DNA of 52,295 nucleotides from the IMG/VR virus record IMGVR_UViG_3300003154_000003, positions 1 through 52,295 of that record; one strand, written 5' to 3'. A model generated the notes under the pieces. The model was not told the origin of the DNA, did not search any database, and was given only the letters and a program-made list of their open reading frames with translations. This document shows, in pieces, positions 2,716-41,357 of the stretch. The position numbers were made by a program, and so were the translations under genes. Every line of letters begins with the position of its first letter. The first letter of the stretch is position 1. Origin of the DNA: a virus.

Positions 2716-2777
2716 CCCCCACAAAAAACTCGCAGAATCGGGCCGTTTCCGTCAATCTGGCATGGGTTTACAGCATG

Positions 2778-6821: not shown

Positions 6822-7730
6822 TTATTCCTCCACGTTATCGGTTTCGTCGTCATCATCCTTAACGGTGCAAGCACCGCGGGTTATGTACTCCGCGGCCTTT
6901 GCAGCCCTTCCGGCAGCCCAAACGATAAGCTTCTTATCGTTCTGTAACTTTTCAAGCCACCCAACAATATAAGCGCTGTTTATATCGAAAGTTTCTTCGG
7001 CAATCTCCGCGCCCATCATACCAAGCAGTATAGACGCGCCCATTTCGGCTACAAGTTCTTCGCGGCTGTATGATTCACTTGCGAAAACGTGGTCATCGCC
7101 GTCTATTGCAAAACGGTTTAGACGCTTTGGATGTCCGGTGCTGTGGGTCATTTCGTGAAACATGGCACTATAATATAGTTCCGGCTTTTCGAACTTGTTT
7201 ATTTCCGGCACATTAACCTTGTCCAAAACCTCGCAGTAGTAAGCACCATCATCATAGTGTGTTACTTCCTTAAGTTCCTTAGAGTACAGTTCAACCACAT
7301 TTTCACATTCCTTAATAAGTTCATGCTTAACTGTGCTCTGCTTGCTCTCAATCCCTTCAACCTGCGAGATGTGGAACACATAGTAATATCTAAGCATTGG
7401 AATCCTGACAACTTCCGGGTTTCCATCCTTATCCTTCTTATCGGTCTTCTTTTCAAGCATCTTGAAGTATGTTATAAGGTGTCCGTGCTCTCCCTTCTTA
7501 ACACTTCCTCCGGCCTGCTGTGCCTGCTTGAATGTCATGTATTCGCCACCACCCGGCAGCATGAATAGATTGATACCATGATAAGGCTTTTGTGTAACCC
7601 AATTAACGGGCATACCTTCCGTCCATGTTCTGCGCCACGGTATAACGCCCGTTTCCAAAGCCTTAATCATTCTCTCAGTGACGATTTGGTAAACGTCTAC
7701 CGCCTTGTTGTTGTTGGTCTTTGTTGTCAT
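6822..7730 (-). CDS. ardC: ArdC-like protein: N-terminal ssDNA-binding domain plus C-terminal zincin metalloprotease
   Basis: The N-terminus reads VIPWRRTW...NWVTQKPYHGINLFML, which matches the ArdC/DUF1738 pattern. The C-terminal half contains the HExxH motif FHEMTHSTGH. AGGAGG lies upstream of the ATG. Confidence 0.6.
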   Translation of the reverse strand: MTTKTNNNKAVDVYQIVTERMIKALETGVIPWRRTWTEGMPVNWVTQKPYHGINLFMLPGGGEYMTFKQAQQAGGSVKKGEHGHLITYFKMLEKKTDKKDKDGNPEVVRIPMLRYYYVFHISQVEGIESKQSTVKHELIKECENVVELYSKELKEVTHYDDGAYYCEVLDKVNVPEINKFEKPELYYSAMFHEMTHSTGHPKRLNRFAIDGDDHVFASESYSREELVAEMGASILLGMMGAEIAEETFDINSAYIVGWLEKLQNDKKLIVWAAGRAAKAAEYITRGACTVKDDDDETDNVEE

Positions 7731-10216: not shown

Positions 10217-10353
10217 AGCAAAGTTTTTTTCTTCGTCTATTACATGTTCATACTGTACTTTTATTGTCGTTTCAATGCCCCCATTTTATTACATTTTGGG
10301 ATACTCTCTTTTAATACGCCGGATAATATAAACCTTTCTGTATGTCAACCAAC

Positions 10354-10425
10354 ATCATTTCAATTTAAAGCCACTTTTTAAGCCCGTGGAGAGGTCAGTA
10401 TATAAATGGTGGTGTATTCATATTA
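10354..10425 (-). promoter_or_regulatory. Conserved promoter/leader element A, copy 2
   Basis: Near-identical to A1 and A4. The minus strand has TTTATATA at 10406-10399. The conserved ATG at 10358 opens a 15-codon uORF (MMLVDIQKGLYYPAY). Confidence 0.6.
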
Positions 10426-10657
10426 AACCCCATGTGAAATTAGCACGGCGGGGCAAATCCGGCAAACCTGCACGGGCTAAAAGGGCCTGATATATCTAGC
10501 AAAAAAGCGCTTAATCCAAAGCATCTTATTTTAATATTTTATTTTTTATCTGAAAAATGTAATGTATGAGAATTTATTAAAATTTATTTGAGTCAGTAAA
10601 CGCATGAAGTTTTTATAAAAGATGGCATCCAACAGATAAAACAGTTTTCTTTTATTT

Positions 10658-21360: not shown

Positions 21361-23598
21361 TTACCGTCTCCGCGTGTTGTTTCTATATATTATATATGAA
21401 GCGACAATATAAGAAACTACAAAACTGCCGACAACATAACTATCTTTTATATGTGTACCGCCAACGTCTGCAATCCATGTTTGACTATCTGCTGAAATTA
21501 AGGCAGGTATATTATAATCTGTGCCGCCCGTGTTGTTAAATGTATACGTTGCGGCTGTCACACTTGTATTTGTCTGTACTGTGCTGCCGTTGAGTTTCCA
21601 TGTTACGTTCTCGGCACCATCTAAATTAACAGTGAATGTCTGTGCTGTATTAGGTTTTATATACGGTGTGGTATCCACCGGCAAATATGAAATAATCTGA
21701 TTCGGTGAAACTGTTATTATCCATGTCTGACTATCCCCAAATACTGGGGCAGTTATATTATATTCTCCGGCTGCTGTAGCTGGAAAAGTATAATGTCCTT
21801 CTGTGCTTCCGCTATCTGTTTCCGCTAAACTGCTGTCTACATACCAACTTATATCATCGGCTTGGTCTATGGTAACGTTAAATGTTATGGCGTTATCTTC
21901 GGCCACGGCTGGCGTTGTATCAATTGGTGTAAAATCTGTTATAGCGGTATAATTGTATTCCAAAGCAACATCATAATATTTTGAAGTTCCGGTTGTTAAG
22001 TCGCCTATATCTATTACGATATTGTCACCGCTGCGTTCCACGGTTGCGCCCGTCTGGTTTGATACCATCGACGGGTCGAAAAGCCTATCAGTGACGGCAA
22101 GCGGATATGTTAAGGTTGCTGCCGCCAGGTCATGCGTTGGTGTAAACACGAGATTTACTAAATGATGTGTGCTGTTATCGGTTTCCTGAACCTTTGTATA
22201 ATTTGTTACAAAGTAAAGCAATAAAGAAACATCGTGCGACTGCGTGGAGTTACTAACAAATTTAACATTCTGTAAATTCTTTGGAACGGCTACGCTCTGG
22301 TTTGTGCTCGTTAAAGGTGTTTCGGTTCCAGTAGAATTTATTTGAAACTTTGTGCCCGCATATCCTAAAGTAAATTCTCTTATAATGCTTTGGGGCAATA
22401 CGGTATTATACAATATTGTGTAATCTATGGTACTGTTCCAAAACCCGGCTGAACCTGTAGAACCTATATTAAGGTTTGCGGTGGTACCTGTTACAGATGT
22501 ATAAGACGTTGAACTATTAGCGCTTAGTTCTCCATTCTTATAAAATAGTCCCCTGTCTGTGGTGGGTGAAATTGAAACCGCGTAATGTGTCCAATTATAC
22601 ATAGCCGTTTTTGATTCGTTAACGGCTCCATAAGCGTATTTTGTACCGCCTGAATATACATAACCGGCATGTCTTAATGTTGCTGCACCATCGTATTTTA
22701 TACCGTATTGGTTAGCCTTATAAATAAGACGTGTCCCGTCTGCTTCGGGGTATCTGTATATTCCTGCAAGCATTGTTATTTCGTCGGTAATATTTAATGA
22801 CGCCGTTGACGTACGGTTTAATTGGTCATTACCATCAAAACGTAAAGCGCTGTTTGCATTACCGAAACGGTCATTTACTGGCGTTGCTGTAGTGGCACCG
22901 AGATTATTAGCGTTTGTGCTTATATCGTTATTATTTCCCTCAAACGGCCATGCGGCAACAACATTTGACTGTCTAGGATATGTTGAGATGTTGGACTCGT
23001 CCCAAACTTGATATGTCTGTACATTCGGAAAAATTATATACATGGCTGTTGCATTTGGCACCCCGACGGTTATAGTCATATCGGCAACGTTTCCGTTAAC
23101 CGTTTTATATAGATAACCAACGGCTCCGCCTATAACAACTTCAGAAAAATTTGAAACTATTTCTATATCGCCGTTTTTATCCATAACGTCGGCCGTATTA
23201 TAAATAAGTGCGGTGTCTACAACGCCTTCGTTATTTATATGCACATAGCTAAATTGTTTGCCGTTGTAGTCCTTAAGTTTCTTAAGTGTGTTCTCGTTAA
23301 ATTTCAACTTTGCTTTTTTGTCGGATTTTTCTTTATCTGAAATTAATAGCTTTCCGTCTATATCTGAAACTTTATAATTATTAGCGTTACTATTTTTAGT
23401 AGTTATTTGAATTTCCCCTGAAAATTTAGCGGGGCAATCTATCACTGTTTTATAACTGCCGCCGGTTTGGTCATCAGATGTTTTTTTATCATCGCCCGCG
23501 GCTACGGCTGACGCTGCACAACTTACTAAGAAAATACATGCAATAAATAATATTCCCAATTGTTTTATTTTGGGAATTAAGCTTGTAAACATCTTCAT
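21361..23598 (-). CDS. secreted, lipobox-bearing LamG/ConA-like lectin-fold protein with two Ig-like repeats and a C-terminal TM anchor, 745 aa
   Basis: The N-terminus KQLGILFIACIFLVSCAAS is a signal peptide with an L-V-S-C lipobox. NSALRFDGNDQL...ITMLAGIY fits the LamG_3 pattern. Two C-terminal repeats of about 65 aa follow (F.V......W..[DN][GS]...Y.F...G.Y.I...W). The protein ends VVGSFVVSYIVASYIIYRNNTRRR. There are more than 20 N-x-S/T sequons. Confidence 0.6.
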   Translation of the reverse strand: MKMFTSLIPKIKQLGILFIACIFLVSCAASAVAAGDDKKTSDDQTGGSYKTVIDCPAKFSGEIQITTKNSNANNYKVSDIDGKLLISDKEKSDKKAKLKFNENTLKKLKDYNGKQFSYVHINNEGVVDTALIYNTADVMDKNGDIEIVSNFSEVVIGGAVGYLYKTVNGNVADMTITVGVPNATAMYIIFPNVQTYQVWDESNISTYPRQSNVVAAWPFEGNNNDISTNANNLGATTATPVNDRFGNANSALRFDGNDQLNRTSTASLNITDEITMLAGIYRYPEADGTRLIYKANQYGIKYDGAATLRHAGYVYSGGTKYAYGAVNESKTAMYNWTHYAVSISPTTDRGLFYKNGELSANSSTSYTSVTGTTANLNIGSTGSAGFWNSTIDYTILYNTVLPQSIIREFTLGYAGTKFQINSTGTETPLTSTNQSVAVPKNLQNVKFVSNSTQSHDVSLLLYFVTNYTKVQETDNSTHHLVNLVFTPTHDLAAATLTYPLAVTDRLFDPSMVSNQTGATVERSGDNIVIDIGDLTTGTSKYYDVALEYNYTAITDFTPIDTTPAVAEDNAITFNVTIDQADDISWYVDSSLAETDSGSTEGHYTFPATAAGEYNITAPVFGDSQTWIITVSPNQIISYLPVDTTPYIKPNTAQTFTVNLDGAENVTWKLNGSTVQTNTSVTAATYTFNNTGGTDYNIPALISADSQTWIADVGGTHIKDSYVVGSFVVSYIVASYIIYRNNTRRR

Positions 23599-27455: not shown

Positions 27456-27530
27456 TGCACAATTAGTTTAATGATTTTTATAATGCAATGCGTGATAACG
27501 ATTTAAAAAAACGCTATGCGTGGGTGCATC

Positions 27531-27594
27531 GATTTAAAGCCACTTTTTAAGCCCGTGGTGAGGTCAGTATATAAAGGGGTATACTTTCCTATTA
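27531..27594 (-). promoter_or_regulatory. Conserved promoter/leader element A, copy 3 (most diverged)
   Basis: It shares gatttaaagccactttttaagcccgtgg.gaggtcagtatataaagggg with the other copies. The minus strand has TTTATATA at 27575-27568 and a T7 run upstream. The ATG at 27529 opens an 8-codon uORF. Confidence 0.55.
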
Positions 27595-27739
27595 ACAAAA
27601 AAAGTTATGCGTTTTCAGCCATCCGATAGCGAAAAGGGTCTTATATAATTTGAAAAGTCGGCGGTGAAACCCAATCCTATAAAAGTTAGTGTCGGAAATA
27701 CTGTTTAGTAAAAATAAAAGAAGTCGTTTTTAAAGTTTA

Positions 27740-27856
27740 TCAATCATTCAAAGTTCTTGATAAAGTTTCTTCGTCGTGTTCTTCGGCTTGTATAGCAAGC
27801 TTTGCGGCCCGCTTATCAGCCATAATAAACTTTTCAAGTAATATTTCATCTGTCAT
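27740..27856 (-). CDS. small acidic helical protein, 38 aa (candidate immunity/antidote partner of the upstream toxin-like domain)
   Basis: My own translation gives MTDEILLEKFIMADKRAAKLAIQAEEHDEETLSRTLND. GGGGTG lies upstream of the ATG. The ORF starts 37 nt after the MuF-zeta stop and is followed by T-runs. Confidence 0.4.
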   Translation of the reverse strand: MTDEILLEKFIMADKRAAKLAIQAEEHDEETLSRTLND

Positions 27857-27893
27857 ACTTGACACCCCATATATTCAATTTTAAATATCGTGG

Positions 27894-29369
27894 TTATTTA
27901 GTAACTATTAGTTTATAAGGCTTTCCGTATTCCACATCTGTATCGTATACCGCGCCAACATCACACATTTTTAAAACTTCGAATTGATTAATATTAGCTT
28001 GTTCGGCGGTATCTATAACCATTTCAAGCGGCACATATCTATGTTCCGCGCCTTCGCCCACCAACCGGCTAACATTTCGCTGCATGACTTTTTCTAATGG
28101 TAGATTGGTAGCCCTCAATTCAACTTCATAACCTAATGACCTATATTTATTTATGATTTTTTCGGCTTTGTCCTGCCGCTTCAATGTCCCGTCTATTATT
28201 ACGTTGCTACGTTCTTTTTGTATCCGGGCCTCTATTTGGTCTAATACGTCGCTGGCCTCATCGTGGAATAATGCGGCATTCGGGCCAGTATATCCCGGCA
28301 ACATGTGTTTTATATCATCGTTGTTTATATAGTTAAAACTATCAAAATCATTTACATATTTCTTAAGCCCGCCTTTACCTGACCCGGACGGACCCCCGAA
28401 CAATATAACCCGGGGTTTATTTCCCGTGGCGGGCTTCCCGGCAAATGTTTCTATTATTTCATTATGAACCATTTGCCGCTCTTCCGTGTATACCCCGTTA
28501 ACTTGATTCAAAAATTTAGATGTTCGGCCTAATCTAACCTGTTCATCTGTTAAAATTATTTCGTTCATAATAGCCGGATGCTTGCTTATTTCAAGTTGCG
28601 TTTTTATAAGTAGTTGCCGCTTTTCGGCATCCGGGGTTATCTTGGTATATTTCGCGGGTATGCTCTCCGGCAAGTTGACCGGTGGAATATCTGCCGGTTC
28701 GGTGGGTATATTAACCGGCGGCATGTCTCCCGGCTTTGGAATTACCGGTATATAAGTACATCTGCAATTAGGTTCACCCAATGGTGGGGCGTTGTCTATA
28801 CTATACGTTTTGCCGTTTCGGTCGCGGTGTAGCTGCCTAGTTTTTGCATCTCCTACCGCTAACCATTTTAACTCTTTTACCCCATGCTTTTTAAAACGTG
28901 TTTCGGCTCCTTCCCACTGAATGCGTTTTACTTCCGTGCGGGCAACCATTGAAGCATGAGAGCGGCGAGCATTAAAATAATCGTGAAGTTCCGACGCAAT
29001 GGAATCTTTCGGATATCCCCCCCGTTTATATTCCTTAACTCCCGTCGGCTTTCCCTCTTTTACCCCCCGGGCTATTATGTCGGCTACGGTCTTCCGCTGT
29101 TCTTCGGACGATTCTTTAAACCACGGCTTAAATATTTTTTTGTCCATGTTTGGGCCGCCGACTACCCACGTACCCCCCTTTGTAATCAAATCTTTTTTAT
29201 ATTGTTTAGAATATGCTAATGCTTCTTTCTGTACCTGCCTAACATTGATAGATGCTTTTAATAGATTGCTCGCGTCCATGTCACCGGATGCGTGAGATTT
29301 TGCCGCGCCTCTGGCTAATATCTGCGAAAATGCAATGTCAAAAATATTAAAAGCACCATCGAACGGCAT
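27894..29369 (-). CDS. MuF / SPP1 gp7-family minor head protein fused to a zeta-toxin-like P-loop kinase domain, 491 aa
   Basis: The MuF core reads ARTEVKRIQWEG...WLAVGDAKTRQLHRDRNGKTYSID...GEPNCRCTYIPV. A Pro-rich linker follows with repeated PPVN[IL]P. The C-terminal domain reads YTEERQMVHNEII...RVILFGGPSGSGKGG...NVIIDGTL...GYEVELRATNLPLEKVMQRNVSR, which fits the zeta / AAA_33 pattern. Confidence 0.7.
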   Translation of the reverse strand: MPFDGAFNIFDIAFSQILARGAAKSHASGDMDASNLLKASINVRQVQKEALAYSKQYKKDLITKGGTWVVGGPNMDKKIFKPWFKESSEEQRKTVADIIARGVKEGKPTGVKEYKRGGYPKDSIASELHDYFNARRSHASMVARTEVKRIQWEGAETRFKKHGVKELKWLAVGDAKTRQLHRDRNGKTYSIDNAPPLGEPNCRCTYIPVIPKPGDMPPVNIPTEPADIPPVNLPESIPAKYTKITPDAEKRQLLIKTQLEISKHPAIMNEIILTDEQVRLGRTSKFLNQVNGVYTEERQMVHNEIIETFAGKPATGNKPRVILFGGPSGSGKGGLKKYVNDFDSFNYINNDDIKHMLPGYTGPNAALFHDEASDVLDQIEARIQKERSNVIIDGTLKRQDKAEKIINKYRSLGYEVELRATNLPLEKVMQRNVSRLVGEGAEHRYVPLEMVIDTAEQANINQFEVLKMCDVGAVYDTDVEYGKPYKLIVTK

Positions 29370-29380: not shown

Positions 29381-30739
29381 TTACTTACCCAACGATTTTA
29401 TAATGGGTTTTTCCAACTTATCAAATTCTTTGTTTATCTGTGTTGTCATCTCTGCCGTTATCTTGTCCTCAACTTTTTTACTCTGTCCCATAAAGTCGCC
29501 GTTCTCATCTATTCCCGGGGCTCCGGTTTCTCCGGCTGATTTGAACTCTATTAGTTCCTGTATTTCCTCATCTGTCAGCGGGTCCATATCGAGCAATTCA
29601 AGCACCCGGGACGGTGGCAAAATTTTATATGTTAAGCATAATTCAGCCTTTTTTAAGTTGGCGTCGGTTTGGTCAATGCGCGGCGATGGAATAGAAATTT
29701 CGATATGCCAACCGGGCGGGAAACTATTATATGTGAAATACCTATTTAAAAGTATTTCAAACTGTTCTTCAATCCAACCGTGTATAGCGCTTATAACTTG
29801 CGAAAGTAATTTCTCGCGTTCCTTTTCTCCGCCAGCTAAACCGTTTTCTCCCTGCCTTGCTATAAATCCGGCGGGGCTTATATAATCAATGACCATGTTA
29901 TAAAGGGCCCCGATAACTTCTAAGTTATTGCTGTCGTCCTTTATGTTAAGGTCTACTAGTTCCATATTCTGCCTTAATTGAAACGCGGTGTCTTTACCCC
30001 AATTTTGCAATAGTATGTTTGCATATTCGATATCCCCAACGTTTCCGTTTTTGGTGCTGGCTGGCTGTGGTTCTGTAACCTTTATAAATAGAACCTTTGC
30101 ACCTACCCGGTTAACCTGTTGCATCTGGCTATTCCATGTGTATTTTAACATGTCTATAATGGGTATAAGTGGCAATAGTTCCGGGTCGCCGTCAATATAT
30201 CGGCTGGTTGGATTCATTATAATAGCGGCATTTTCGATTAATACGGTTTTGCCTTCGCTGTTTGTCTGCCAGCATTCAACCTCTCCCTCTTTGTTTAATG
30301 CTATTCCCTGCAACCTGCGGGCGTATATTGTAGTAACTCCCGGCGGGGCAATTGTGAAACTGTCGGCCGGTAAGTGGCGCAACTTCTTAAGAATAACCGC
30401 GTTGCTGTCTTCTGCTTTTCCCCACACGTCGTTAAAAATGCTTACGCCATGCCATAGGGTATCGTCATACGCTTTTTGCATCTGCGCCCACATACGCACG
30501 TCGTCACACATTTTTGACACTATAGTACTTTGCTCTTCGTCTATATTTCCGTCCGGGTCAATTACTGTAAGGGTGTACTCGTCGGGAAATATCAACGACT
30601 GCAACCGGCGGCTTATTCCTTTACCATAAATATTTTGCCGTGTGTTCTCTACCGTTTCCGGGGTTATTTCATCACTCGAGTAAATTGTCCCGGTCGATGC
30701 TATGTATACGTCGCCTACTTCGCCTTTTTCTTTTACCAT
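29381..30739 (-). CDS. portal protein, 452 aa
   Basis: Track ORF between terL and the MuF gene; the size is appropriate. The call rests on synteny. Confidence 0.65.
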   Translation of the reverse strand: MVKEKGEVGDVYIASTGTIYSSDEITPETVENTRQNIYGKGISRRLQSLIFPDEYTLTVIDPDGNIDEEQSTIVSKMCDDVRMWAQMQKAYDDTLWHGVSIFNDVWGKAEDSNAVILKKLRHLPADSFTIAPPGVTTIYARRLQGIALNKEGEVECWQTNSEGKTVLIENAAIIMNPTSRYIDGDPELLPLIPIIDMLKYTWNSQMQQVNRVGAKVLFIKVTEPQPASTKNGNVGDIEYANILLQNWGKDTAFQLRQNMELVDLNIKDDSNNLEVIGALYNMVIDYISPAGFIARQGENGLAGGEKEREKLLSQVISAIHGWIEEQFEILLNRYFTYNSFPPGWHIEISIPSPRIDQTDANLKKAELCLTYKILPPSRVLELLDMDPLTDEEIQELIEFKSAGETGAPGIDENGDFMGQSKKVEDKITAEMTTQINKEFDKLEKPIIKSLGK

Positions 30740-33372: not shown

Positions 33373-35043
33373 TTAAAATTCCCCCATTACCCACGTTGGA
33401 GCGCTGCTGTAAGTAATGTTTATGACACTTCCCGGGGCAAGGGTAAACCGGCCAGATGTTAGCCCGGTTGTTAACAGCGTGCCGCCAGACTTCGAAACTT
33501 TTATAGCGGAAACCGTGCCGCCGTATATGAACACATCTAAATTTACATGGAAAGTGTTTGTCCAACTTGTGCCGCTGCTTGGCACGGCTGGCGCTGTCAC
33601 GTTTCCAACCGGGTTATATCCATAACAATTAGATATTTCGCTATTGGTTCCCACCAACAAAGCCGCGGCGGTCACATATGATTTTATAAGGCACCCATCA
33701 AATTTATTATAATCCGACGTACCACTTTCTAAAATACCGTAACTGTGCCCCGTTATCATTCTAACCGCGCTTGCTGTGTTCTCGTTTGCATTAACGCAAT
33801 CAATCCCCGCGCCGGTGTTGTTATAACATTCCCCATCTACAAACCCGTTTCGATTTGCGGAAGTTAAAACTATTGCATCCCCGGCAATATCTCTTATCAT
33901 AAAGGTGCTGAAACTATTTCCATGACACCCGCTATCTATCTTTATGCCCTGTGGGGTTGTTGTTATCGGTCCACCGTATATAAACAAATTGTTAAAGTTG
34001 TTTCGGCTGCTGGTTGTCTGCATTAATATTGCTGGTCCTTTCGTATAACGTAAATCAAGATTTGAAAATACATTTTCTGCACATGTTGTTAAGCTTATTC
34101 CCGGGCTGGTTGCTGTTCCGTTGCTCGGGTCCTGCGTGGTTATTATATTGCATCCAACATTAAACCGGCTGTTGTATCCTAAAATGCATTCATTCCATAC
34201 GTTCGAACCCATTATATTACTTATCCGATTTCCGCCTATGTAATAAAGATTTAAAACCGGCCCGTGAATATCAACGGCTGTGATGTTACTTATTATATTA
34301 TTTGAGGTAGTAACCGAGGACCCGGCCCGGACCCGGACACCTGCCGTATTAAAGCCATAACTTGCGCTAAACTGGCTGTACAAATATACCTTATTAATAT
34401 GTAAATTTGTTAATGATGTTGAGCTTATAGTATCTATACCGGTGTCGATTCCGTAACGACATACTATATTATTCATATATAAGTCTGCGCCGTTAATTTG
34501 AATACCGGTATATAGCCATTCAGTAGTAACATTTTCCACTACACCCCCCGCACCCGTTTTAATACCTATTATTGTATTGGTTGCGGCATGTGATGCAAGG
34601 GTTAATGTTACATTGCGCACCGTAAAATATGACGCGGCCGATGCATCTATGCCTATTGTACATGCGTCTATAGTCATCACGGCCCCGTGAAAATCTATAT
34701 CCCCATAACTAACGGCCGTTAAATTTGAACCTAATGCAGCATTGCCGCCTATGTAATGTATGGTTGTATATGGGTGTGCGGCTAATGCCGTTTCTAATGC
34801 GGTTGCTACATCTGCATAGTCATCCACATCATACGTACATAAATTATCGTCGCCCACCGTAATTATTCCATATGTAGCAAAAAGCTGTTCGGGCGTTTTG
34901 CTCCGCCATTTATCAACGTCCGAGCCGCCGCCGCTTCCAGAATGTGCGGCATATATCCCCGCTTCCATCCGGTTAAGTTGTGCGGCGGTTATAGGTGTTG
35001 CCGTGCTCGGGTAATCTTCCCATGTTTCCGGTACAAATACCAT
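33373..35043 (-). CDS. tail fibre / depolymerase with a right-handed beta-helix, 556 aa
   Basis: The N-terminal WEDYPSTATPITAAQLNRMEAGI is a motif common at phage fibre N-termini. Repeated N-[IV]-x-x-x-N-[IV] beta-helix rungs follow (NNIISNITAV, NRISNIMGSN, NNFNNLFIYGG). No signal peptide. Confidence 0.6.
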   Translation of the reverse strand: MVFVPETWEDYPSTATPITAAQLNRMEAGIYAAHSGSGGGSDVDKWRSKTPEQLFATYGIITVGDDNLCTYDVDDYADVATALETALAAHPYTTIHYIGGNAALGSNLTAVSYGDIDFHGAVMTIDACTIGIDASAASYFTVRNVTLTLASHAATNTIIGIKTGAGGVVENVTTEWLYTGIQINGADLYMNNIVCRYGIDTGIDTISSTSLTNLHINKVYLYSQFSASYGFNTAGVRVRAGSSVTTSNNIISNITAVDIHGPVLNLYYIGGNRISNIMGSNVWNECILGYNSRFNVGCNIITTQDPSNGTATSPGISLTTCAENVFSNLDLRYTKGPAILMQTTSSRNNFNNLFIYGGPITTTPQGIKIDSGCHGNSFSTFMIRDIAGDAIVLTSANRNGFVDGECYNNTGAGIDCVNANENTASAVRMITGHSYGILESGTSDYNKFDGCLIKSYVTAAALLVGTNSEISNCYGYNPVGNVTAPAVPSSGTSWTNTFHVNLDVFIYGGTVSAIKVSKSGGTLLTTGLTSGRFTLAPGSVINITYSSAPTWVMGEF

Positions 35044-35061: not shown

Positions 35062-38000
35062 TTAAGATACATCTGCGTACAATGAAAACCTTTCAGATTC
35101 CGCGCCGTACAAACCACACCACGCCCACAGCGTCACGTTTTCGCCGGGTGCCAGTGCAGTATTAACCGCCTGTGGAGTAGAACTTAGTTTAATGCTATCT
35201 GCCCCCTTTATCGGGTCATTGTCTACCCATATATCTATCGTGGCGGGTGTGTCCCGGTCAAGATATAAATACGGTGTTCCGCTACTTCCCCCGGTGTTGG
35301 TTATTTTCAATGTCGGCTGTGTGCTGTTTTGTGCATAGTTCGGCACCAAGTTAGCCCACCAAAACGCATCAAAGTATAAATAATCCAATGCGTCCCCTGT
35401 ATACCACATTTCGCCGTCCCAATATTGGAACCCATCAATAGGTGGTATTGTGAACCCGAAATTATAATACTTCGATTCTCCGGCGGACTGTGGGCCGGTT
35501 GTAATGGTTATTACTCCATCGTTCTTAACATATTCTGCATTGGTGTTATTTGTACTGAATGAGTTTACAGCGACGCCGTTAAACCGTCTGTCGGCAAGGG
35601 TATATATAATAGTTCCGTTCGTGCTGTCTAATAGCACATCTTGAACCATTGAAACATTTAATTGCCCGCTTGCCCTTGTTTCCTCGGTGGTTAAATCGGT
35701 GTCGTTGAACGTCATCAAAGCGGATACGTCGAACGTAGATAAATTATATGCCGAAAATACCAATTGTGTAAGGTTTCCCATACCATGTGGTAAGCTTACC
35801 GGGTTGTCTGCTACGCTGTCCCACTGATTAGACCACGCACCCAAACCATAGAACCTTATATATTTGTTCACAGTGTCGGTTATGGTAACATTACCACTTA
35901 CCAGATAAGCACCTGTATAAGTTTGTGACAATGTAAAGGGCGTTGTATAATTCATATCGTTAGCGGTTTCGGTATAATATCCACTGTATCCGGTTTTTGG
36001 TACTTCGTAATAATCCGGTTCGCCGTCTTCCCCGTCTTCCAGTACTTCAACCGACCATTCATAACTATCTGATTCCGCGCCTTCAATGACATATAGCATT
36101 ATGGTATAGTACCCGGATGGCATACCTGTACCCCATGTGTATGAGTCACTGGTTGCACCTATTGCCGTATTTCCTGCAATGCCGTTATAATACCAATAGT
36201 AATTAGCTGCTTTATTGGTGCTCGCGCTGAATGTTCTTGTACTATTGTGCGGCAAGGTTGTACTAGCTGCCGGGCTGGTTTCGATAATGTTCAATGTTTC
36301 CGGTTCATATATGGTAATTTCCCACTCCACAAAATCGTCGTCGGTTTCCGCTCTAACCGTATATGTGCCGTTTGTTGTTGAAACGAAATCATATCCGGCT
36401 GCGTATCCCGGGGCGGCTGTTGTGTCGGTTTCCCTTAAGTTTCCGTCAACCTTCCACACAACGGATGTATTCGTATTTGTGGTAACATTAAAAGCTTTTA
36501 TGGTGTTCTTCGGCCAGCTAAATGATGCTGTACCGGGTGCATAGCTTTCTATTGTCTTCGGATTTGGTGCGGTTGCATATATGCTCAATTTCGGGGCTCT
36601 TGATGCATTACCGTTTTCTGAACTGTAGAAAGCTATATAATTATCGTGCTCGTTTCCAGCTTTCAGGAAAAATCCCTTGTTATACTGCGGATACGTTGCA
36701 AAAGATTGTACCAAGTCGGTTACATCTATCGATATATACCCATTTATGGGTATGTCTTCCGCGTTTATGGTATAATTACCGAATGGATACCCCGGCGGTT
36801 CGCTGGTTGGATTTACATAATTTAAGGTGTTTTGATAATCTCCGCCCGGATACGTCCACGCTGCCCCGGTTAATCTACTGTTCCAAGTTACCTGTGATTG
36901 TGTCCACGATTCGGCAGGAACAACTTTATATACTTTTATATCAGTGTCGTTGTTCCTTGTAACCCCGGCCGGATAATACCACCACAAATCAAGGGTAGCA
37001 TATCCAATATCCTCCGGGTCATAGCTGGTTAAATTGAAATACAGCAAATCCCTATAAACTGCACCGGTTGACGCAATTTGTCCCAAGTCTAAATAAGTGC
37101 CCGTTCCGAAATTACTATCGGGTGTAGTTGATTTTATACGTGAATCGGCAACTGTAACCGGTGCTTCCGGCGGGGTTTCGTTGCCAACCGTTACGGATGC
37201 ATAATAATATGTTGAACCTTCTGCATTGGTCAGTGTTAATGTGTAGGTTGTGCTTGCGGTTGGATATACCGCAACGGCTCCGCCGGATACCGGGGTAACG
37301 GCACCCACGCCGGAAATTGAAGCGCTTACCGCGTTGGTACTCGTCCAAATTAAATTAGACGATTCCCCGGCGGTTATACTGGTCGGGTTTGCCGTAAACG
37401 TTCCATACGGATACACGGCCCCACTGGCAGACTTTGACGCTTCGGCGGTGTTACCATACCGGCCGATATTTGCACGCGCACCGTTTGGCTGTGGCTCGAG
37501 ACTATAGGGCATTGTAGCCTTGCCGGTATCTATGCATATACTGTTAACCGTGTCGGCTGTCCATGTGCTCCCTGTCCACCGGCCCGCCGTGCTCTTAAGA
37601 TGATAATCCCGGGACCCATAGGCGCCCGTCATAAGATAAACCGCGGGGTCGCCGTGAATGTTATTAGTCATTGTAAACCCGCCGGACCCGCTGGCGCTGT
37701 ACGTATCCCCTACGTTATTATAGAAACAATTATTCTCTACAACAAAATGATTTCTTGGGAATATGTTAGCAATACCATACCCGGAATTAGTATAACCGGT
37801 TGGAGTTAGGGCGGTATTCATTATAATATTATTTCTAACGTAAGTTGTGTAACTGACCCCGCTTGCCGGTCGGATGTCTCTTTCTTCCCACGCTATAGCC
37901 TGTTGCCCGCAGTCATCGAAAACATTGTGCTCGATACGTGTATTTTGGAAATTCATTATTGAGATACCACTATTTGAATAACCATTATCTGAGTAGTGAC

Positions 38001-38985
38001 CCGTATAAGTAAAGGTGTTGTGGTGTATATAAACACCTTCGCCGTGTACGGTTGTGTCCGATGTGCCCCCGCTCGCGTGTGATAACCAAATACCGGAAGC
38101 GTAACCGTTATAAAATTTATTATTATTGACTTCAATGTCATTAAAATACGGACTTGTTGCGCTGCTTCCTATCTGCACGAGCGGGCCGCTATACGCCCCG
38201 CCGATACTGCTATAAAAAACATTGTTTCTTACATCGGCGTGCTGTATACCATCTGACAGCCTAACACATGAATTTGTACGGCTCTTAAGCACGTTATTTT
38301 CAACAAGTACATATTCGGCCGTCAGGAAATAAAAACATTCGTGCCCCAATTCCCACGCTGTATTATTTGTAATAGTGATATGGTCCGATGTTCTTATATT
38401 CATTCCGTCAATGTCACCGTACTGCATGTGTGTATTATCTATAGTCAGATATGACACATCATTAAACTGTACTAAAATATTCCCGCTGTCGCCTAAAGAG
38501 GTGTCTTGTGGGTGTCCACCGTCTAGGGTTATGTTCCTAATTGCTATATGGTTAGCACCGTTAACAGCATCAATCAAATTTAACCCGGTCGTGGACCGTG
38601 CGGCACTTGTAAATGTTATTACGGCGTCCTCGTCGCCGCTTAGAGTTATACCAGTGTTTGGCCCCACTATTTCAGATGGAACATAATAAGTATGCGGTCC
38701 TTTAAGATATACCGTAGTATACCCGCTCGCTTTGTTGTTATAAGCATAAGCAAGGGCATTAGTAATCATTGTGTGGTCCGTGCTGCTTGATAGCGTGCCC
38801 GTACATGTGTAAGTTGTGCCCCCGGCCGTATCTCCGGCATTGCCTGTATAACCAACGTACAAAACGGGCGGGGCTGCGGCGCCTGACCCGGCGGGGTGTA
38901 ATACTAATACGCTTATCGCAAGCAGTAGCAAAACACCATAAAATAGTTTACTAAAAGTATCAATCGGACCGGTCTTAAAATTCAT
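35062..38985 (-). CDS. secreted multidomain beta-helix glycanase-like protein (disaggregatase-like) with a DNRLRE-type segment and Ig-like repeats, 1307 aa
   Basis: The N-terminal signal or anchor reads FYGVLLLLAISVLVLHPAGSGAAA. PbH1-type rungs are present (ITITNNTAWE, VLVENNVLKS, VRNNVFYSS, IHHNTFTY, IEHNVFDD, VVENNCFYNN). The segment ADSRIKSTTPDSNFGTGTYLDLG...LLYFNL...VTWNSR resembles the DNRLRE domain. Two repeats of about 65 aa belong to the same type as those in 21361-23598. Confidence 0.6.
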   Translation of the reverse strand: MNFKTGPIDTFSKLFYGVLLLLAISVLVLHPAGSGAAAPPVLYVGYTGNAGDTAGGTTYTCTGTLSSSTDHTMITNALAYAYNNKASGYTTVYLKGPHTYYVPSEIVGPNTGITLSGDEDAVITFTSAARSTTGLNLIDAVNGANHIAIRNITLDGGHPQDTSLGDSGNILVQFNDVSYLTIDNTHMQYGDIDGMNIRTSDHITITNNTAWELGHECFYFLTAEYVLVENNVLKSRTNSCVRLSDGIQHADVRNNVFYSSIGGAYSGPLVQIGSSATSPYFNDIEVNNNKFYNGYASGIWLSHASGGTSDTTVHGEGVYIHHNTFTYTGHYSDNGYSNSGISIMNFQNTRIEHNVFDDCGQQAIAWEERDIRPASGVSYTTYVRNNIIMNTALTPTGYTNSGYGIANIFPRNHFVVENNCFYNNVGDTYSASGSGGFTMTNNIHGDPAVYLMTGAYGSRDYHLKSTAGRWTGSTWTADTVNSICIDTGKATMPYSLEPQPNGARANIGRYGNTAEASKSASGAVYPYGTFTANPTSITAGESSNLIWTSTNAVSASISGVGAVTPVSGGAVAVYPTASTTYTLTLTNAEGSTYYYASVTVGNETPPEAPVTVADSRIKSTTPDSNFGTGTYLDLGQIASTGAVYRDLLYFNLTSYDPEDIGYATLDLWWYYPAGVTRNNDTDIKVYKVVPAESWTQSQVTWNSRLTGAAWTYPGGDYQNTLNYVNPTSEPPGYPFGNYTINAEDIPINGYISIDVTDLVQSFATYPQYNKGFFLKAGNEHDNYIAFYSSENGNASRAPKLSIYATAPNPKTIESYAPGTASFSWPKNTIKAFNVTTNTNTSVVWKVDGNLRETDTTAAPGYAAGYDFVSTTNGTYTVRAETDDDFVEWEITIYEPETLNIIETSPAASTTLPHNSTRTFSASTNKAANYYWYYNGIAGNTAIGATSDSYTWGTGMPSGYYTIMLYVIEGAESDSYEWSVEVLEDGEDGEPDYYEVPKTGYSGYYTETANDMNYTTPFTLSQTYTGAYLVSGNVTITDTVNKYIRFYGLGAWSNQWDSVADNPVSLPHGMGNLTQLVFSAYNLSTFDVSALMTFNDTDLTTEETRASGQLNVSMVQDVLLDSTNGTIIYTLADRRFNGVAVNSFSTNNTNAEYVKNDGVITITTGPQSAGESKYYNFGFTIPPIDGFQYWDGEMWYTGDALDYLYFDAFWWANLVPNYAQNSTQPTLKITNTGGSSGTPYLYLDRDTPATIDIWVDNDPIKGADSIKLSSTPQAVNTALAPGENVTLWAWCGLYGAESERFSLYADVS

Positions 38986-39445: not shown

Positions 39446-39912
39446 TCTTCTTTATTGTCGTCTGCCGTCCCGGTTGCCCGCGTTAACCGTTCCTTCCTTA
39501 TAACGGCTAGTTCTTTTTCGACGTTCAATAAACGCCTCCATAGTTCATCACGTTCCCGGTTATCCGCTAACATCCTTTGATAGCAATCAACGTGATAATG
39601 TTCTGTACCCAATAGTATATAGTTCTTTCCCTCTACCTTCTTACCACATGCCGTATAAGGGCATATATACACGTTCGCGGCTTCATTCTCCGGTTTGTAT
39701 ACCAACATAGCGACAGCATCATTAAATTCCGTGGCAAACTGATTAACCCGGCTAATAAAGTCCTGCGTTTGTTCGGTTCTCGGGTCATCTGCGAGCAACA
39801 AATCTAAAGAAGTTTTTCTAAGTTCCTTAAGAATTTTATGTGCATCGTTAAGCACTCTATCATATTTTTGTAGATTCATTCTATAGCACCTGATTATGTT
39901 TACTGATATCAT
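39415..39912 (-). CDS. Zn-ribbon plus coiled-coil protein, 165 aa
   Basis: Track ORF containing CPYTACGKKVEG...HYHVDCY. The listed ATG at 39912 is the conserved ATG of element A4. An alternative start is 39879 (MNLQKYD). Confidence 0.55.
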   Translation of the reverse strand: MISVNIIRCYRMNLQKYDRVLNDAHKILKELRKTSLDLLLADDPRTEQTQDFISRVNQFATEFNDAVAMLVYKPENEAANVYICPYTACGKKVEGKNYILLGTEHYHVDCYQRMLADNRERDELWRRLLNVEKELAVIRKERLTRATGTADDNKEDCKDGACKVL

Positions 39913-39979
39913 TTCAATTTAAAGCCACTTTTTAAGCCCGTGGCGAGGTCAGTATATAAAGGGTGGTATATTCATATTA
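39908..39979 (-). promoter_or_regulatory. Conserved promoter/leader element A, copy 4
   Basis: Near-identical to A1 and A2. The minus strand has TTTATATA at 39960-39953 and a T5 run upstream. It also shares an upstream ATTGACGGAAA box with A1 (40010-40020 versus 2744-2754). Confidence 0.6.
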
Positions 39980-40031
39980 ACCACCCCGAAAAAGTGGGAA
40001 ATCGCCGCCTTTCCGTCAATATATGAATGCA

Positions 40032-40823: not shown

Positions 40824-41357
40824 CTAAAACCCGCGCATCTTGCACTCTTCATTTAATGAACGGGACCCGCGCCACTTGTTGAAATTTGCCCGGCGCTTCT
40901 TACTAAAATTTGTTACATATATAATACTCTGGCCTTCTATGAGCAATTGATGCACAGCAAGCCGTTTAATACGTTTATTCAACTTGCTCCGGGCCGTATG
41001 AAATTCGGCAATCATGCACGTATATAAAAAACAGTAGAGCACTTCAACCGTGTCCGGGTCATGGTATTTATAAGCCAAGTCCTTAATAAGTGTCAATACT
41101 TCCGGGTTAACGGTGTCCGTCGTGTTATCATATATTTTTACATAGTCGTTATATACCCGTTCCCGCCCGTGCTCTTCCGCCACCCCCTCGAGCACTTTGA
41201 AAATTTTATAATCTTTAGGACCATACCCGGATTTTATGGGTATGCACATACTGTTTTGCAAGGTGGCTTTTTGCGTTTTTAAGAAAATACACCATTCATC
41301 AAAGTCACCTTTATCAAAAAACATGTATCCGTGCCAGAATTTCGTTATTAGTTGCAT
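40824..41357 (-). CDS. hypothetical protein, 177 aa
   Basis: Track ORF on the coding strand. Confidence 0.5.
   Translation of the reverse strand: MQLITKFWHGYMFFDKGDFDEWCIFLKTQKATLQNSMCIPIKSGYGPKDYKIFKVLEGVAEEHGRERVYNDYVKIYDNTTDTVNPEVLTLIKDLAYKYHDPDTVEVLYCFLYTCMIAEFHTARSKLNKRIKRLAVHQLLIEGQSIIYVTNFSKKRRANFNKWRGSRSLNEECKMRGF

What the first reader, a model, noticed from the sequence alone, without database searches (positions are those of the whole stretch)
27740..29369. Capsid-internal MuF protein fused to a zeta-toxin-like kinase, followed by a 38-aa acidic ORF (candidate packaged effector plus antidote)
Seen in sequence:
- Residues about 1-205 carry the MuF/SPP1 gp7 signature (…HRDRNGKTYSID…GEPNCRCTYIPV).
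- A Pro-rich linker follows, with a duplicated PPVN[IL]P.
- The C-terminal roughly 230 aa match the zeta/PezT-type P-loop kinase pattern (YTEERQMVHNEII, FGGPSGSGKGG, IIDGTL, GYEVELRATNLP…QRNVSR).
- The residue after the Walker lysine is Gly rather than Ser or Thr.
- A 38-aa helical acidic ORF with its own SD starts 37 nt downstream and is followed by T-runs.

Established knowledge: MuF-family proteins are packaged in the head and can be ejected with the DNA. MuF-toxin fusions with a downstream immunity gene are known from temperate Firmicutes phages. Zeta toxins phosphorylate UDP-GlcNAc.

Inference: an injected enzyme that manipulates nucleotide-sugar or nucleotide pools of the host envelope pathway, with the micro-ORF neutralising it during assembly. 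If the host is archaeal, this would be a new context.
Basis: partly seen in the sequence, partly recalled or inferred. Interest (0 to 1): 0.72.

Follow-up and report, generated by a model that had tools for sequence, protein, structure and literature searches.

The report
Swappable virion kinase in methanogen virus
A tailed virus that very probably infects the methanogen Methanosarcina encodes a head protein (MuF) fused to a zeta-toxin-like kinase, one of several swappable cargo domains likely delivered into the host; the design is already known from phages, but the archaeal host is unusual because it lacks the cell-wall pathway that zeta toxins normally poison.

Summary
Window 27894-29369 (minus strand) encodes a 491-aa protein with three parts:
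- a MuF domain (Pfam E=4e-12);
- a Pro-rich linker with duplicated PPVN[IL]P;
- a zeta-toxin-family P-loop kinase (Pfam E=1.5e-22).

An AlphaFold model of the kinase (pLDDT 96) matches zeta, PezT and AvrRxo1 best. A 38-aa acidic ORF follows 37 nt downstream.

A virus 92.7% identical in flanking DNA keeps MuF plus linker (92% identity to residue 234). It then carries an unrelated C-terminal domain. This cassette swap is the hallmark of a polymorphic, virion-delivered effector.

The host is very probably Methanosarcina:
- a disaggregatase-like protein has relatives only in Methanosarcinales genomes;
- the head genes resemble only methanogen viruses.

The substrate is undecided. UDP-GlcNAc kinases, an NAD kinase and a polynucleotide kinase are all nearly equidistant by sequence profile.

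The antidote role of the 38-aa ORF is unproven. Small acidic ORFs are enriched after this kinase module (7/14 versus 2/53). This one has no detectable homologue.

It is not new in kind. MuF-zeta fusions in phages (Iyer 2017), MuF polymorphic toxins (Jamet 2017) and zeta-toxin genes in haloarchaeal viruses are already published. I rate it a new member of a known kind.

The parts
27894..29369 (-). 491-aa MuF::zeta-like kinase gene (whole ORF including stop)
   Evidence: ORF list. Pfam MuF plus Zeta_toxin. Independent contigs show the same architecture: P0004 540 aa and P0010 602 aa.
28740..29369 (-). MuF (SPP1 gp7-like) head-incorporation module, residues 1-210
   Evidence: PF04233 on residues 119-206. 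PHROG head-morphogenesis and minor-head families. 47.6% identical over residues 7-210 to the short 217-aa MuF of methanogen virus vir524.
28662..28739 (-). Pro-rich linker, residues 211-236, with duplicated PPVN[IL]P; it is also the recombination junction
   Evidence: Motif positions. Protein identity with L039 stops at residue 234. DNA homology with L039 stops at window position 28667.
27894..28661 (-). Cargo, residues 237-491: helical N-terminal extension plus zeta/PezT/AvrRxo1-clade P-loop kinase
   Evidence: PF06414 E=1.5e-22. AlphaFold model pLDDT 96.4. Foldseek against PDB: zeta 2.6e-9, PezT 1e-8, AvrRxo1 2.6e-7, polynucleotide kinases about 1e-4. BFVD 'Zeta toxin domain' phage proteins with TMq 0.8.
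28371..28394 (-). Walker A loop G326-G333 (GPSGSGKG), with Gly instead of Ser/Thr after the lysine
   Evidence: In 146 family members the residue after the lysine is S 110, T 19, G 13, A 2.
27740..27856 (-). 38-aa acidic ORF (MTDEILLEKFIMADKRAAKLAIQAEEHDEETLSRTLND): candidate partner or immunity protein, unproven
   Evidence: Small acidic ORFs are enriched after the kinase module. No homologue found.
27863..27868 (-). Shine-Dalgarno-like GGGGTG, 6 nt upstream of the small ORF's ATG
   Evidence: 50% of long ORFs in the window have a match of at least 4 nt at this spacing, against 19% of random positions.
27709..27722 (-). T-runs after the small ORF (oligo-T, terminator-like): end of the terminase-portal-MuF transcription unit (inferred)
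   Evidence: Sequence read. No bacterial-type hairpin terminator was found there.
27529..27596 (-). One of four copies of a repeated element with a TTTATATA box plus conserved leader: presumed promoter of the next (capsid/tail) unit
   Evidence: Repeat families D1/D2. Sequence read.
29381..30739 (-). Probable portal protein (452 aa), directly upstream
   Evidence: Position between the large terminase and MuF. 35% identical to the gene in the same position in vir524. Its only relatives in the phage collection are two methanogen viruses. No portal HMM hit.
35062..38985 (-). 1307-aa beta-helix / disaggregatase-like protein: host indicator (context, not part of the effector)
   Evidence: PF06848 2.3e-45 and PF08480 2.2e-40. 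All 15 confirmed relatives in 185,579 species genomes are Methanosarcina or Methanosarcinales.

Best explanation
This is a polymorphic, virion-delivered effector of a tailed virus of a methanogenic archaeon, most probably Methanosarcina.

1. The N-terminal MuF module (residues 1-210) takes the protein into the procapsid next to the portal. This step is inferred from the SPP1 gp7 / Mu gpF paradigm.
2. A Pro-rich linker (residues 211-236) tethers an exchangeable C-terminal cargo and serves as the recombination junction. The exchange is shown here.
3. In this virus the cargo is a P-loop phosphotransferase of the zeta/PezT/AvrRxo1 clade. Its catalytic constellation appears intact, so it is presumed active.
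4. It is probably released into the host cytoplasm with the DNA. There it phosphorylates an abundant diphosphate-containing small molecule, either a UDP-sugar or NAD(+). That would cripple a host pathway or a defence early in infection. This step is inferred.
5. The canonical zeta mechanism, in which UDP-GlcNAc-3P poisons MurA, cannot be the mechanism in a murein-less host.
6. The 38-aa acidic ORF that ends the operon is a candidate inhibitor or chaperone. It would keep the kinase silent in the producing cell. This is plausible but not shown.
For: Domain fusion:
- Pfam MuF E=4.4e-12 plus Zeta_toxin E=1.5e-22 in one uninterrupted ORF.
- The same architecture occurs in independent contigs P0004 and P0010.

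Fold:
- The model has pLDDT 96.4.
- Foldseek against PDB gives zeta E=2.6e-9 (TM 0.6), PezT 1e-8 and AvrRxo1 2.6e-7 (TM 0.62). PFKFB2 follows at 4.7e-5 and the polynucleotide kinases at 1e-4 or worse.

Catalytic residues aligned to zeta (residue roles from PMC3062530):
- K46=K332, D67=D351, T118=T395, R120~K397, E100~D377, R158=R435, R171=R444.

Polymorphism:
- L039 is 92.7% identical to the window over 11.2 kb of DNA. Its MuF protein is 92% identical up to residue 234.
- Beyond that point it carries an unrelated domain of at least 338 aa with an HExxH motif.
- P0006 and P0007 carry DRAT and ADP-ribosyl-exotoxin domains on homologous MuF modules.
- vir524 and vir525 have short MuF proteins without cargo.

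Module mobility:
- The kinase with 46-52% identity occurs fused to a portal (L001) or stand-alone (L003, L004).
- L001 and L003 share no other gene with the window.
- In the wider family it is fused to MuF, portal, prohead protease, ART-PolyVal, NUDIX and 2H domains.

Archaeal host.

Small ORF:
- 10/14 kinase genes are followed by an adjacent small ORF, against 10/53 control genes (p=4e-4).
- For small and acidic ORFs the figures are 7/14 against 2/53 (p=1e-4).
Against: - No experimental datum exists for packaging, ejection, activity or toxicity.
- Walker A lacks the canonical Ser/Thr (GKG).
- The uracil contact Thr128 of zeta is Ile405, and Thr121 is Arg398.
- The sequence profile is nearly as close to Pnkp1 (1.5e-16) as to zeta (1.3e-18), so the substrate class is not fixed.
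- The small ORF has no homologue, was not called by the depositors' gene finders, and is too short for coding statistics.
- The enrichment test used naive ORF calls and phylogenetically non-independent loci.
- Two more distant relatives (L006, L020/L021) have no small ORF downstream.
- Host assignment is indirect: there is no CRISPR spacer match and no provirus.
Confidence: 0.65

Rival explanations
1. One reading: a classical zeta-type UDP-GlcNAc kinase toxin. The injected enzyme phosphorylates UDP-GlcNAc or UDP-GalNAc and blocks host envelope glycan synthesis. The 38-aa peptide is its specific antitoxin.
For: - Best Pfam, profile and fold matches are zeta and PezT.
- The catalytic Asp, the beta-phosphate-binding Thr and a basic residue at the Arg120 position are kept.
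- A downstream small acidic ORF is enriched.
- The virus also encodes a disaggregatase-like protein. From own knowledge, disaggregatase degrades methanochondroitin, whose precursors derive from UDP-GlcNAc.
Against: - Methanosarcina has no murein and no MurA target (own knowledge).
- The uracil contact T128 is not conserved.
- AvrRxo1 (NAD kinase) fits equally well by TM-score (0.62).
- The family occurs in viruses of hosts with very different envelopes.
- Canonical epsilon/PezA antitoxins are encoded upstream and are about 90 aa or larger (own knowledge). No similarity to them was found.
Confidence: 0.25
2. The cargo is an NAD(+)/nucleotide kinase of the AvrRxo1 type, or a kinase acting on nucleotide-derived immune signals. 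It would be delivered as a counter-defence or metabolic-takeover enzyme. The downstream small ORF would play the role of AvrRxo1-ORF2.
For: - AvrRxo1 gives the highest query-normalised TM-score among PDB hits (0.62) and a profile E-value of 1.2e-13.
- Like AvrRxo1-ORF2 (own knowledge), the partner gene lies downstream.
- Family members are fused to NUDIX, 2H/Acb1-like, HD and ART domains, all of which handle NAD/ADP-ribose/cyclic-nucleotide chemistry.
- A universal substrate would explain the spread of the family across bacterial and archaeal viruses.
Against: - E-values are 2 to 5 orders of magnitude weaker than for zeta/PezT.
- No residue-level test of NAD binding was possible.
- Domain co-occurrence in other proteins is only circumstantial.
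Confidence: 0.25
3. The cargo is a polynucleotide 5'-kinase (Pnkp1 / T4 Pnk-like). It would be packaged to repair tRNA or RNA cut by host anticodon nucleases.
For: - The best single-sequence PDB hit is Pnkp1 (3.3e-5), and the profile hit is 1.5e-16.
- Some family members carry 2H/LigT or HD domains, as RNA-repair enzymes do.
Against: - Foldseek ranks polynucleotide kinases 4-5 orders of magnitude below zeta/PezT/AvrRxo1.
- The Pfam Zeta_toxin score is 80 bits, against 37 bits for AAA_33.
- No phosphatase or ligase domain is present in this protein, and none was found among the 34 window ORFs scanned.
Confidence: 0.1
4. The 38-aa ORF is not a gene, or is a gene unrelated to the kinase. The stretch would simply be the 3' untranslated end of the operon.
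For: - Not called by the depositors' gene finders and absent from a 15-billion-protein collection.
- No homologue among 12 other downstream small ORFs (best uncorrected p=0.04) or in PDB.
- An SD-like match of this strength occurs at 19% of random positions.
Against: - Small, mostly acidic ORFs follow the kinase module whichever protein it is attached to.
- Three pairs of them are homologous to each other.
- The ORF lies inside the block that differs from the near-identical virus.
Confidence: 0.4
5. The element is a bacteriophage, not an archaeal virus.
For: - ArdC-N/MPTase and MuF are typical of bacterial mobile elements (PMC5512222).
- SD-type ribosome-binding sites are used.
- No tRNA, CRISPR or integration evidence ties the element directly to a host.
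Against: - The portal-position protein has relatives only in two methanogen viruses among 50,697 phage records.
- Five further structural proteins match vir524.
- Disaggregatase domains have relatives only in Methanosarcinales genomes.
- The repeated TTTATATA-box element sits at the heads of the gene blocks.
Confidence: 0.07

Closest known systems
MuF polymorphic toxins of temperate phages (Jamet et al. 2017, PMC5576092)
   Same: A conserved N-terminal MuF domain, variable C-terminal toxin or effector domains exchanged between close relatives, and a small ORF directly downstream. That paper reports such an ORF for 89% of MuF toxin genes.
   Different: That survey covered bacteriophages and bacterial genomes only, and its text contains no mention of kinase or zeta domains. 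Here the host is very probably an archaeon. Temperate status is not shown: no integrase was found among the ORFs scanned.
Zeta-toxin-like kinase fused to MuF, or embedded in polyvalent proteins, of phages and conjugative elements (Iyer, Burroughs, Anand, de Souza, Aravind 2017, PMC5512222)
   Same: [quoted passage not shown] The idea of a virion-delivered early effector is the same.
   Different: That paper interprets the kinase as weakening peptidoglycan. It also notes a paucity of polyvalent proteins in archaea. In a murein-less methanogen that rationale fails.
Epsilon/zeta and PezAT toxin-antitoxin systems (UDP-GlcNAc 3'-kinases; PMC3062530)
   Same: Fold, Walker A lysine, catalytic Asp, Thr118 and the two lid arginines.
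   Different: About 18% identity. GKG Walker A. A family-specific YTxERxxxH helix and an HxE motif. T128 is replaced by Ile. There is no epsilon/PezA gene upstream. The protein is fused to a virion protein rather than being part of an addiction module.
AvrRxo1-ORF1/ORF2 (type III effector NAD kinase with a downstream small binding partner)
   Same: A delivered effector of the zeta clade. Comparable structural similarity (TM 0.62). A small partner gene lies downstream.
   Different: Delivered by a secretion system into plant cells. ORF2 is about 100 aa. No sequence relationship to the 38-aa ORF could be tested.
'Zeta toxin' genes of haloarchaeal tailed viruses (HVTV-1 gene 115, HCTV-1, HCTV-5, HCTV-16)
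   Same: The kinase domain is about 30% identical. The gene lies in the head module directly after the 'head assembly' gene. The host is archaeal, and the role is unknown (PMC4284463).
   Different: There the domain sits in a 1313-aa multidomain protein (in HCTV-5 together with ParB) and is not fused to MuF.

Membership tests
Phage Mu F / SPP1 gp7 head protein family (PF04233) | Match to the family HMM above the curated threshold | tested here: met
   47.2 bits against a cut-off of 29.6, residues 119-206. PHROG minor-head and head-morphogenesis families down to E=1e-25.
Phage Mu F / SPP1 gp7 head protein family (PF04233) | Gene located in the head module directly after the portal gene | tested here: met
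   The order is TerL, the 452-aa portal-position gene, then MuF. vir524 has the same order. The portal itself has no HMM support.
Phage Mu F / SPP1 gp7 head protein family (PF04233) | Protein present in the virion | not testable with these tools
   Needs virion proteomics.
MuF polymorphic toxins | Conserved MuF N-terminus with unrelated C-terminal domains in close relatives | tested here: met
   L039 is 92% identical to residue 234 and unrelated after that. P0006 carries DRAT and P0007 carries ADPrib_exo_Tox.
MuF polymorphic toxins | Small ORF (<150 aa) immediately downstream as a putative immunity gene | tested here: met
   A 38-aa ORF lies 37 nt downstream. Its function is untested.
MuF polymorphic toxins | Encoded by temperate bacteriophages or prophages of bacteria | tested here: not met
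   The host is very probably archaeal. No integrase was found among 34 ORFs scanned with Pfam.
MuF polymorphic toxins | C-terminal domain is toxic and is neutralised by the downstream protein | not testable with these tools
   Needs expression assays.
Zeta/PezT toxin kinases (PF06414) | Match to the family HMM above threshold, and the zeta fold | tested here: met
   80.5 bits against a cut-off of 22.3. Foldseek top hits are 3q8x, 1gvn and 2p5t.
Zeta/PezT toxin kinases (PF06414) | Canonical Walker A GxxxxGK[ST] | tested here: not met
   The motif is GPSGSGKG (G333). The same variant occurs in 13 of 146 family members, often as GKGT as in adenylate kinases. It is therefore probably tolerated.
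Zeta/PezT toxin kinases (PF06414) | Catalytic base Asp67 and lid arginines Arg158 and Arg171 | tested here: met
   D351, R435 and R444 align with them. They are at least 90% conserved in the 66-sequence family alignment.
Zeta/PezT toxin kinases (PF06414) | UDP-GlcNAc-binding residues Glu100, Thr118, Arg120 and Thr128 (PMC3062530) | tested here: inconclusive
   T118=T395. R120 becomes K397 and E100 becomes D377, both conservative changes. T128 becomes I405, so that contact is lost.
Zeta/PezT toxin kinases (PF06414) | Cognate epsilon/PezA-type antitoxin gene upstream in a two-gene addiction module | tested here: not met
   The MuF domain of the same polypeptide lies upstream. The only candidate partner lies downstream and has no similarity to solved antitoxins.
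Zeta/PezT toxin kinases (PF06414) | UDP-GlcNAc kinase activity | not testable with these tools
   Needs a biochemical assay.
Polynucleotide kinases (T4 Pnk / Pnkp1 / CthPnkp) | Closest fold and sequence relatives are polynucleotide kinases, with associated phosphatase or ligase modules | tested here: not met
   Foldseek E-values are about 1e-4, against 1e-9 for zeta. There is no phosphatase or ligase domain.

The most novel reading that the evidence does not exclude
The virion-associated 'zeta toxin' family, to which this cargo belongs, may not be a cell-wall toxin at all. It would instead be a delivered kinase for a universal metabolite or immune signal (NAD+, ADP-ribose derivatives or UDP-sugars). 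It would be held in check by hypervariable micro-proteins of 30-100 aa that travel with it as a two-gene cassette. In Methanosarcina it could act together with the virion's disaggregatase-like enzyme: outside, the matrix is degraded, and inside, the supply of its precursors is blocked. That would be the first polymorphic effector-immunity cassette described for an archaeal virus.
Probability: 0.2. Interest if true: 0.7.

Novelty: new member of a known kind. Interest (0 to 1): 0.4.

Why it matters
Zeta-domain kinases are common in phage head modules: 3,589 cluster representatives at E<=1e-10. No phage-borne member has been tested biochemically as far as the literature searched here shows. The usual reading, that they weaken peptidoglycan, cannot hold in a methanogen without murein. 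This locus therefore gives a clean test case for their real substrate.

It also shows that MuF-based cargo swapping, known from temperate bacteriophages, operates in viruses of methanogens. That group of viruses is barely characterised.

If the small acidic ORFs prove to be inhibitors, they would define a new class of very small immunity proteins.

Tried and rejected
Searches and methods that led nowhere:
- Megablast of 12 kb around the gene against 50,697 phage records found no match.
- Exact look-up of the protein's contig found nothing on record.
- Single-sequence AlphaFold of the full protein was unusable, pLDDT 37. It was replaced by a model built from a 66-sequence alignment.
- A scan of 185,579 species genomes with the close kinase alignment found no relative. 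No provirus was therefore found by this route.
- The 66-sequence alignment was too diverse for locus retrieval.
- The metagenome scan added only one informative locus, L042.
- The 38-aa ORF has no PDB sequence match. It has no significant similarity to 12 other downstream small ORFs and is not in the protein collection.
- I tried to find a near-identical relative covering the small ORF, to read its substitution pattern. Contigs L039 and L040 both stop short of it. L040 and the 5' end of L039 break at copies of a 68-115-nt repeat, and L039 ends inside its alternative cargo.

Ideas considered and rejected or downgraded:
- A dead kinase because of the GKG Walker A. Rejected: the variant recurs in 9% of the family and all other catalytic residues are kept.
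- A polynucleotide kinase. Downgraded on fold ranking.
- A fusion caused by an assembly or frameshift artefact. Rejected: the ORF is continuous and the architecture recurs in independent contigs.
Full report
**1. What is in the sequence**

The feature lies on the minus strand. ORF 27894-29369(-) encodes 491 aa. These include the duplicated PPVN[IL]P (217-222 and 229-234) and the Walker A loop GPSGSGKG, with Gly333 after the lysine.

Pfam assigns Phage_Mu_F to residues 119-206 (E=4.4e-12, above the curated threshold). It assigns Zeta_toxin to residues 315-461 (E=1.5e-22, 80.5 bits), with AAA_33 far behind at 37 bits. PHROGs give minor-head and head-morphogenesis families for the N-terminal half.

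Thirty-seven nucleotides after the stop codon, an ATG at 27856 opens a 38-aa ORF (pI 4.56, net charge -5):
- A GGGGTG motif lies 6 nt upstream of this ATG.
- Two stop codons and oligo-T runs follow the ORF.
- After that come about 285 nt without a convincing ORF. This stretch holds one copy (27529-27596) of a 68-115-nt element present four times in the window.
- On the coding strand the element carries a TTTATATA box and a conserved leader. Each copy sits at the head of a block of genes.

I infer that the operon containing the terminase, portal-position, MuF::kinase and 38-aa ORFs ends here, and that the capsid/tail operon starts at this element.

**2. The kinase domain**

A single-sequence structure model failed. 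A model of residues 237-491 built on a 66-sequence family alignment is very confident, with pLDDT 96.4 and pTM 0.92.

| Foldseek hit in PDB | E-value | TM-score |
|---|---|---|
| zeta (3q8x, 1gvn) | 2.6e-9 | 0.59-0.61 |
| PezT | 1e-8 | about 0.53 |
| AvrRxo1 | 2.6e-7 | up to 0.62 |
| PFKFB2 | 4.7e-5 | about 0.39 |
| Pnkp1 and other polynucleotide kinases | >= 1e-4 | 0.44-0.48 |

The fold assignment is therefore sound.

By sequence profile the family is almost equidistant from enzymes with different substrates:

| PDB protein | Known activity | Profile E-value |
|---|---|---|
| zeta | UDP-GlcNAc kinase | 1.3e-18 |
| PezT | UDP-GlcNAc kinase | 7.9e-18 |
| Pnkp1 | polynucleotide kinase | 1.5e-16 |
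| AvrRxo1 | NAD kinase | 1.2e-13 |

Residue mapping, with residue roles taken from the zeta-UNAG structure paper PMC3062530:

| Zeta residue | Residue here | Status |
|---|---|---|
| K46 (Walker lysine) | K332 | kept |
| D67 (catalytic base) | D351 | kept |
| T118 (beta-phosphate contact) | T395 | kept |
| R120 | K397 | conservative change |
| E100 | D377 | conservative change |
| R158, R171 (lid arginines) | R435, R444 | kept |
| T128 (uracil contact) | I405 | lost |
| T121 | R398 | changed |

The family also has its own near-invariant motifs, YTxERxxxH before the P-loop and an HxE motif.

The GKG Walker A is not a private lesion. Among 146 family members the residue after the lysine is S 110, T 19, G 13 and A 2, and GKG often reads GKGT as in adenylate kinases.

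My reading is that this is an active phosphotransferase of the zeta clade. Its substrate probably contains a diphosphate. Homology cannot tell whether that substrate is a UDP-sugar or NAD.

**3. The family and its carriers**

An exhaustive profile search found 7,981 cluster representatives at E<=1e-3, 3,589 at 1e-10 and 213 at 1e-30. Among the best 150:
- 63 are stand-alone proteins of about 300 aa;
- 69 are 400-1000 aa, mostly with the kinase at the C-terminus;
- 16 are giant proteins of up to 4,564 aa.

Pfam on the 69 mid-sized proteins shows fusions to MuF (5), portal (3), DUF2213 (2) and prohead protease (1). There are also fusions to ART-PolyVal (1), NUDIX (3), 2H/LigT and HD domains.

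Viral structure matches (BFVD) are phage proteins already labelled 'Zeta toxin domain containing protein'. Their TMq is about 0.8, which means the helical N-terminal extension belongs to the module. One of them is fused to an Acb1-type phosphoesterase.

The closest relatives (46-52% identity) occur in three settings:
- fused to a portal (L001);
- stand-alone near MuF (L003, L004);
- fused to MuF (L002).

L001 and L003 share nothing else with the window at E<1e-4. The kinase is thus a mobile module that attaches to whatever enters the capsid.

**4. Polymorphism, the strongest new evidence**

A Logan contig, L039, is 92.7% identical to window 39939-28667 over 11.2 kb. Its MuF protein is 92% identical through residue 234, the end of the second PPVN repeat. 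After that it is unrelated for at least 338 aa.

The replacement domain has no Pfam hit. It contains VHEMMHH, an HExxH motif read by eye, so 'metallopeptidase' is only an inference. It matches three PHROGs of unknown function.

Homology to the window resumes, on contig L040 from the same sample, at 27558 at the latest. The variable block therefore includes both the kinase and the 38-aa ORF. The right-hand junction is not assembled.

More distant MuF relatives behave the same way:
- P0006 and P0007 carry DRAT or ADP-ribosyl-exotoxin domains.
- Methanogen viruses vir524 and vir525 have short, cargo-less MuF proteins.

This pattern defines polymorphic toxins and effectors.

**5. Host**

- The 1307-aa ORF 35062-38985(-) has Disaggr_repeat and Disaggr_assoc domains (E about 1e-45 and 1e-40).
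- All 15 confirmed relatives of that ORF in one-genome-per-species GTDB are in Methanosarcina, Methanosarcinaceae or Methanosarcinales (29-37% identity).
- The portal-position protein has only two relatives among 50,697 phage records. They are vir524 (host Methanomicrobiales) and vir525 (host Methanosarcinales).
- Five further structural proteins match vir524.
- In the phage collection, the kinase half finds its best matches in haloarchaeal tailed viruses.
- The capsid proteins of L001 and L003 hit only a haloarchaeal virus capsid.

An archaeal host, most probably a Methanosarcina, is therefore very likely. The evidence is indirect: there is no spacer match and no provirus.

**6. The small ORF**

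Position:
- Small ORFs of 30-109 aa, mostly acidic, directly follow the kinase gene in the window and in L001-L004, L010, L011, L013, L014, L015-17, L019, L022 and L042.
- They do not in L006 and L020/21.
- In L005 a homologue of the L015 small ORF lies adjacent but on the opposite strand.

Enrichment, using the same naive ORF caller for kinase and control genes:

| Next ORF | After kinase genes | After other genes of >=200 aa | Fisher p |
|---|---|---|---|
| adjacent, <=110 aa | 10/14 | 10/53 | 4e-4 |
| adjacent, <=110 aa and acidic | 7/14 | 2/53 | 1e-4 |

The loci are not phylogenetically independent and the gene calls are crude, so this is supportive evidence, not proof.

Sequence and translation signals:
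- Three pairs of small ORFs are homologous to each other (L003/L004, L014/L022, L015/L005).
- The window's peptide matches none of them (best uncorrected p=0.04). It matches nothing in PDB and is not in the protein collection.
- Its SD-like motif is as good as that of half the genes in this genome. A motif of this strength also occurs at 19% of random positions.

The partner lies downstream, which fits polymorphic-toxin immunity genes (PMC5576092). It also fits AvrRxo1-ORF2 (own knowledge). It does not fit epsilon/PezA, which are encoded upstream. I put the partner or antidote role at about 0.35-0.4.

**7. Comparison with what is known**

- Iyer et al. [quoted passage not shown] They also note a paucity of polyvalent proteins in archaea.
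- Jamet et al. 2017 defined MuF polymorphic toxins with downstream small ORFs in temperate bacteriophages. Their text mentions neither kinase domains nor archaea.
- Zeta-toxin genes in the head-tailed haloarchaeal viruses HVTV-1 and HCTV-1 are noted with unknown role. In HVTV-1 the gene encodes 1,313 aa and follows the head-assembly gene.
- The two papers on archaeal and methanogen viruses that I checked mention neither zeta nor MuF. A targeted search found nothing relevant.

The architecture and the idea are therefore published. What this locus adds:
- a methanogen-virus example;
- direct evidence of cargo swapping at the linker between near-identical viruses;
- a host in which the textbook target does not exist.

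**8. Verdict**

| Question | Verdict |
|---|---|
| Observation | confirmed |
| Novelty | new member of a known kind |
| Interest | moderate (0.4) |

Noticed in passing
window 2642-2756, 10352-10466, 27529-27596, 39906-40020: Four copies (77-88% identical) of a 68-115-nt element. On the coding (minus) strand each carries a TTTATATA box followed by a conserved leader of about 45 nt with a GCCAC-N11-GTGGC inverted repeat. Each copy sits at the head of a block of minus-strand genes, so it looks like a repeated archaeal-type promoter/leader. Contigs L039 and L040 of a related virus begin exactly in these copies.
   Followed up: partly
window 35062-38985 (-) and 33373-35043 (-): A 1307-aa beta-helix protein with disaggregatase domains, next to a 556-aa beta-helix protein. 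The disaggregatase-like protein has relatives only in Methanosarcinales genomes. These are candidate virion depolymerases or receptor-binding proteins for the Methanosarcina matrix. They are encoded upstream of the terminase genes, not in the tail module.
   Followed up: partly
window 6822-7730 (-): A 302-aa protein with ArdC-N (E=4e-28) plus an MPTase-PolyVal zincin peptidase (E=7e-28). This is the anti-restriction and polyvalent-protein hallmark pair, here in a probable archaeal virus.
   Followed up: no
window 21361-23598 (-) versus L040 3933-6932: A second variable locus. The 745-aa gene (weak PKD-like hit) is replaced by a non-homologous 999-aa gene in the near-identical virus, while the flanks are 87-90% identical.
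   Followed up: no
L039 10534-12249: The alternative MuF cargo in the sister virus contains VHEMMHH (an HExxH motif). It matches only PHROGs of unknown function (phrog_33618, E=5e-13), so it may be an uncharacterised metallopeptidase effector.
   Followed up: partly
L042 2431-3717 and 3813-4451: The stand-alone kinase and the next gene share an N-terminal leader, 'K.K.T.KRKAHYRTIKG'. The next gene is a 212-aa protein with a JAB-like HxHPSGSSSFSPED motif. The leader may be a capsid-targeting sequence, an alternative to MuF fusion. Related basic G-rich motifs occur in P0003 and P0005.
   Followed up: no
alignment A4 (P0016, P0017, P0019, P0021, P0022): Many stand-alone family members start with a conserved module of about 40 aa, M..R.K.IKG..Y.Y.Q.S.R..GKVK.K.V.Y.G. 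Its function is unknown.
   Followed up: no
window 51309-52151 (-), 40824-41357 (-): An AEP-TOTE-type archaeo-eukaryotic primase domain (E=3e-23) and a DUF7004 protein (E=8e-39). The window has no tRNA genes. No integrase was found among the ORFs scanned.
   Followed up: no
L005 4640-4801 (minus strand) versus L015 3570-3797: Homologous small proteins (EIPxEH[WF]DDDxP motif, shuffle z=8.3) lie next to the kinase gene in both loci but in opposite orientations. The neighbourhood is thus kept across an inversion.
   Followed up: partly
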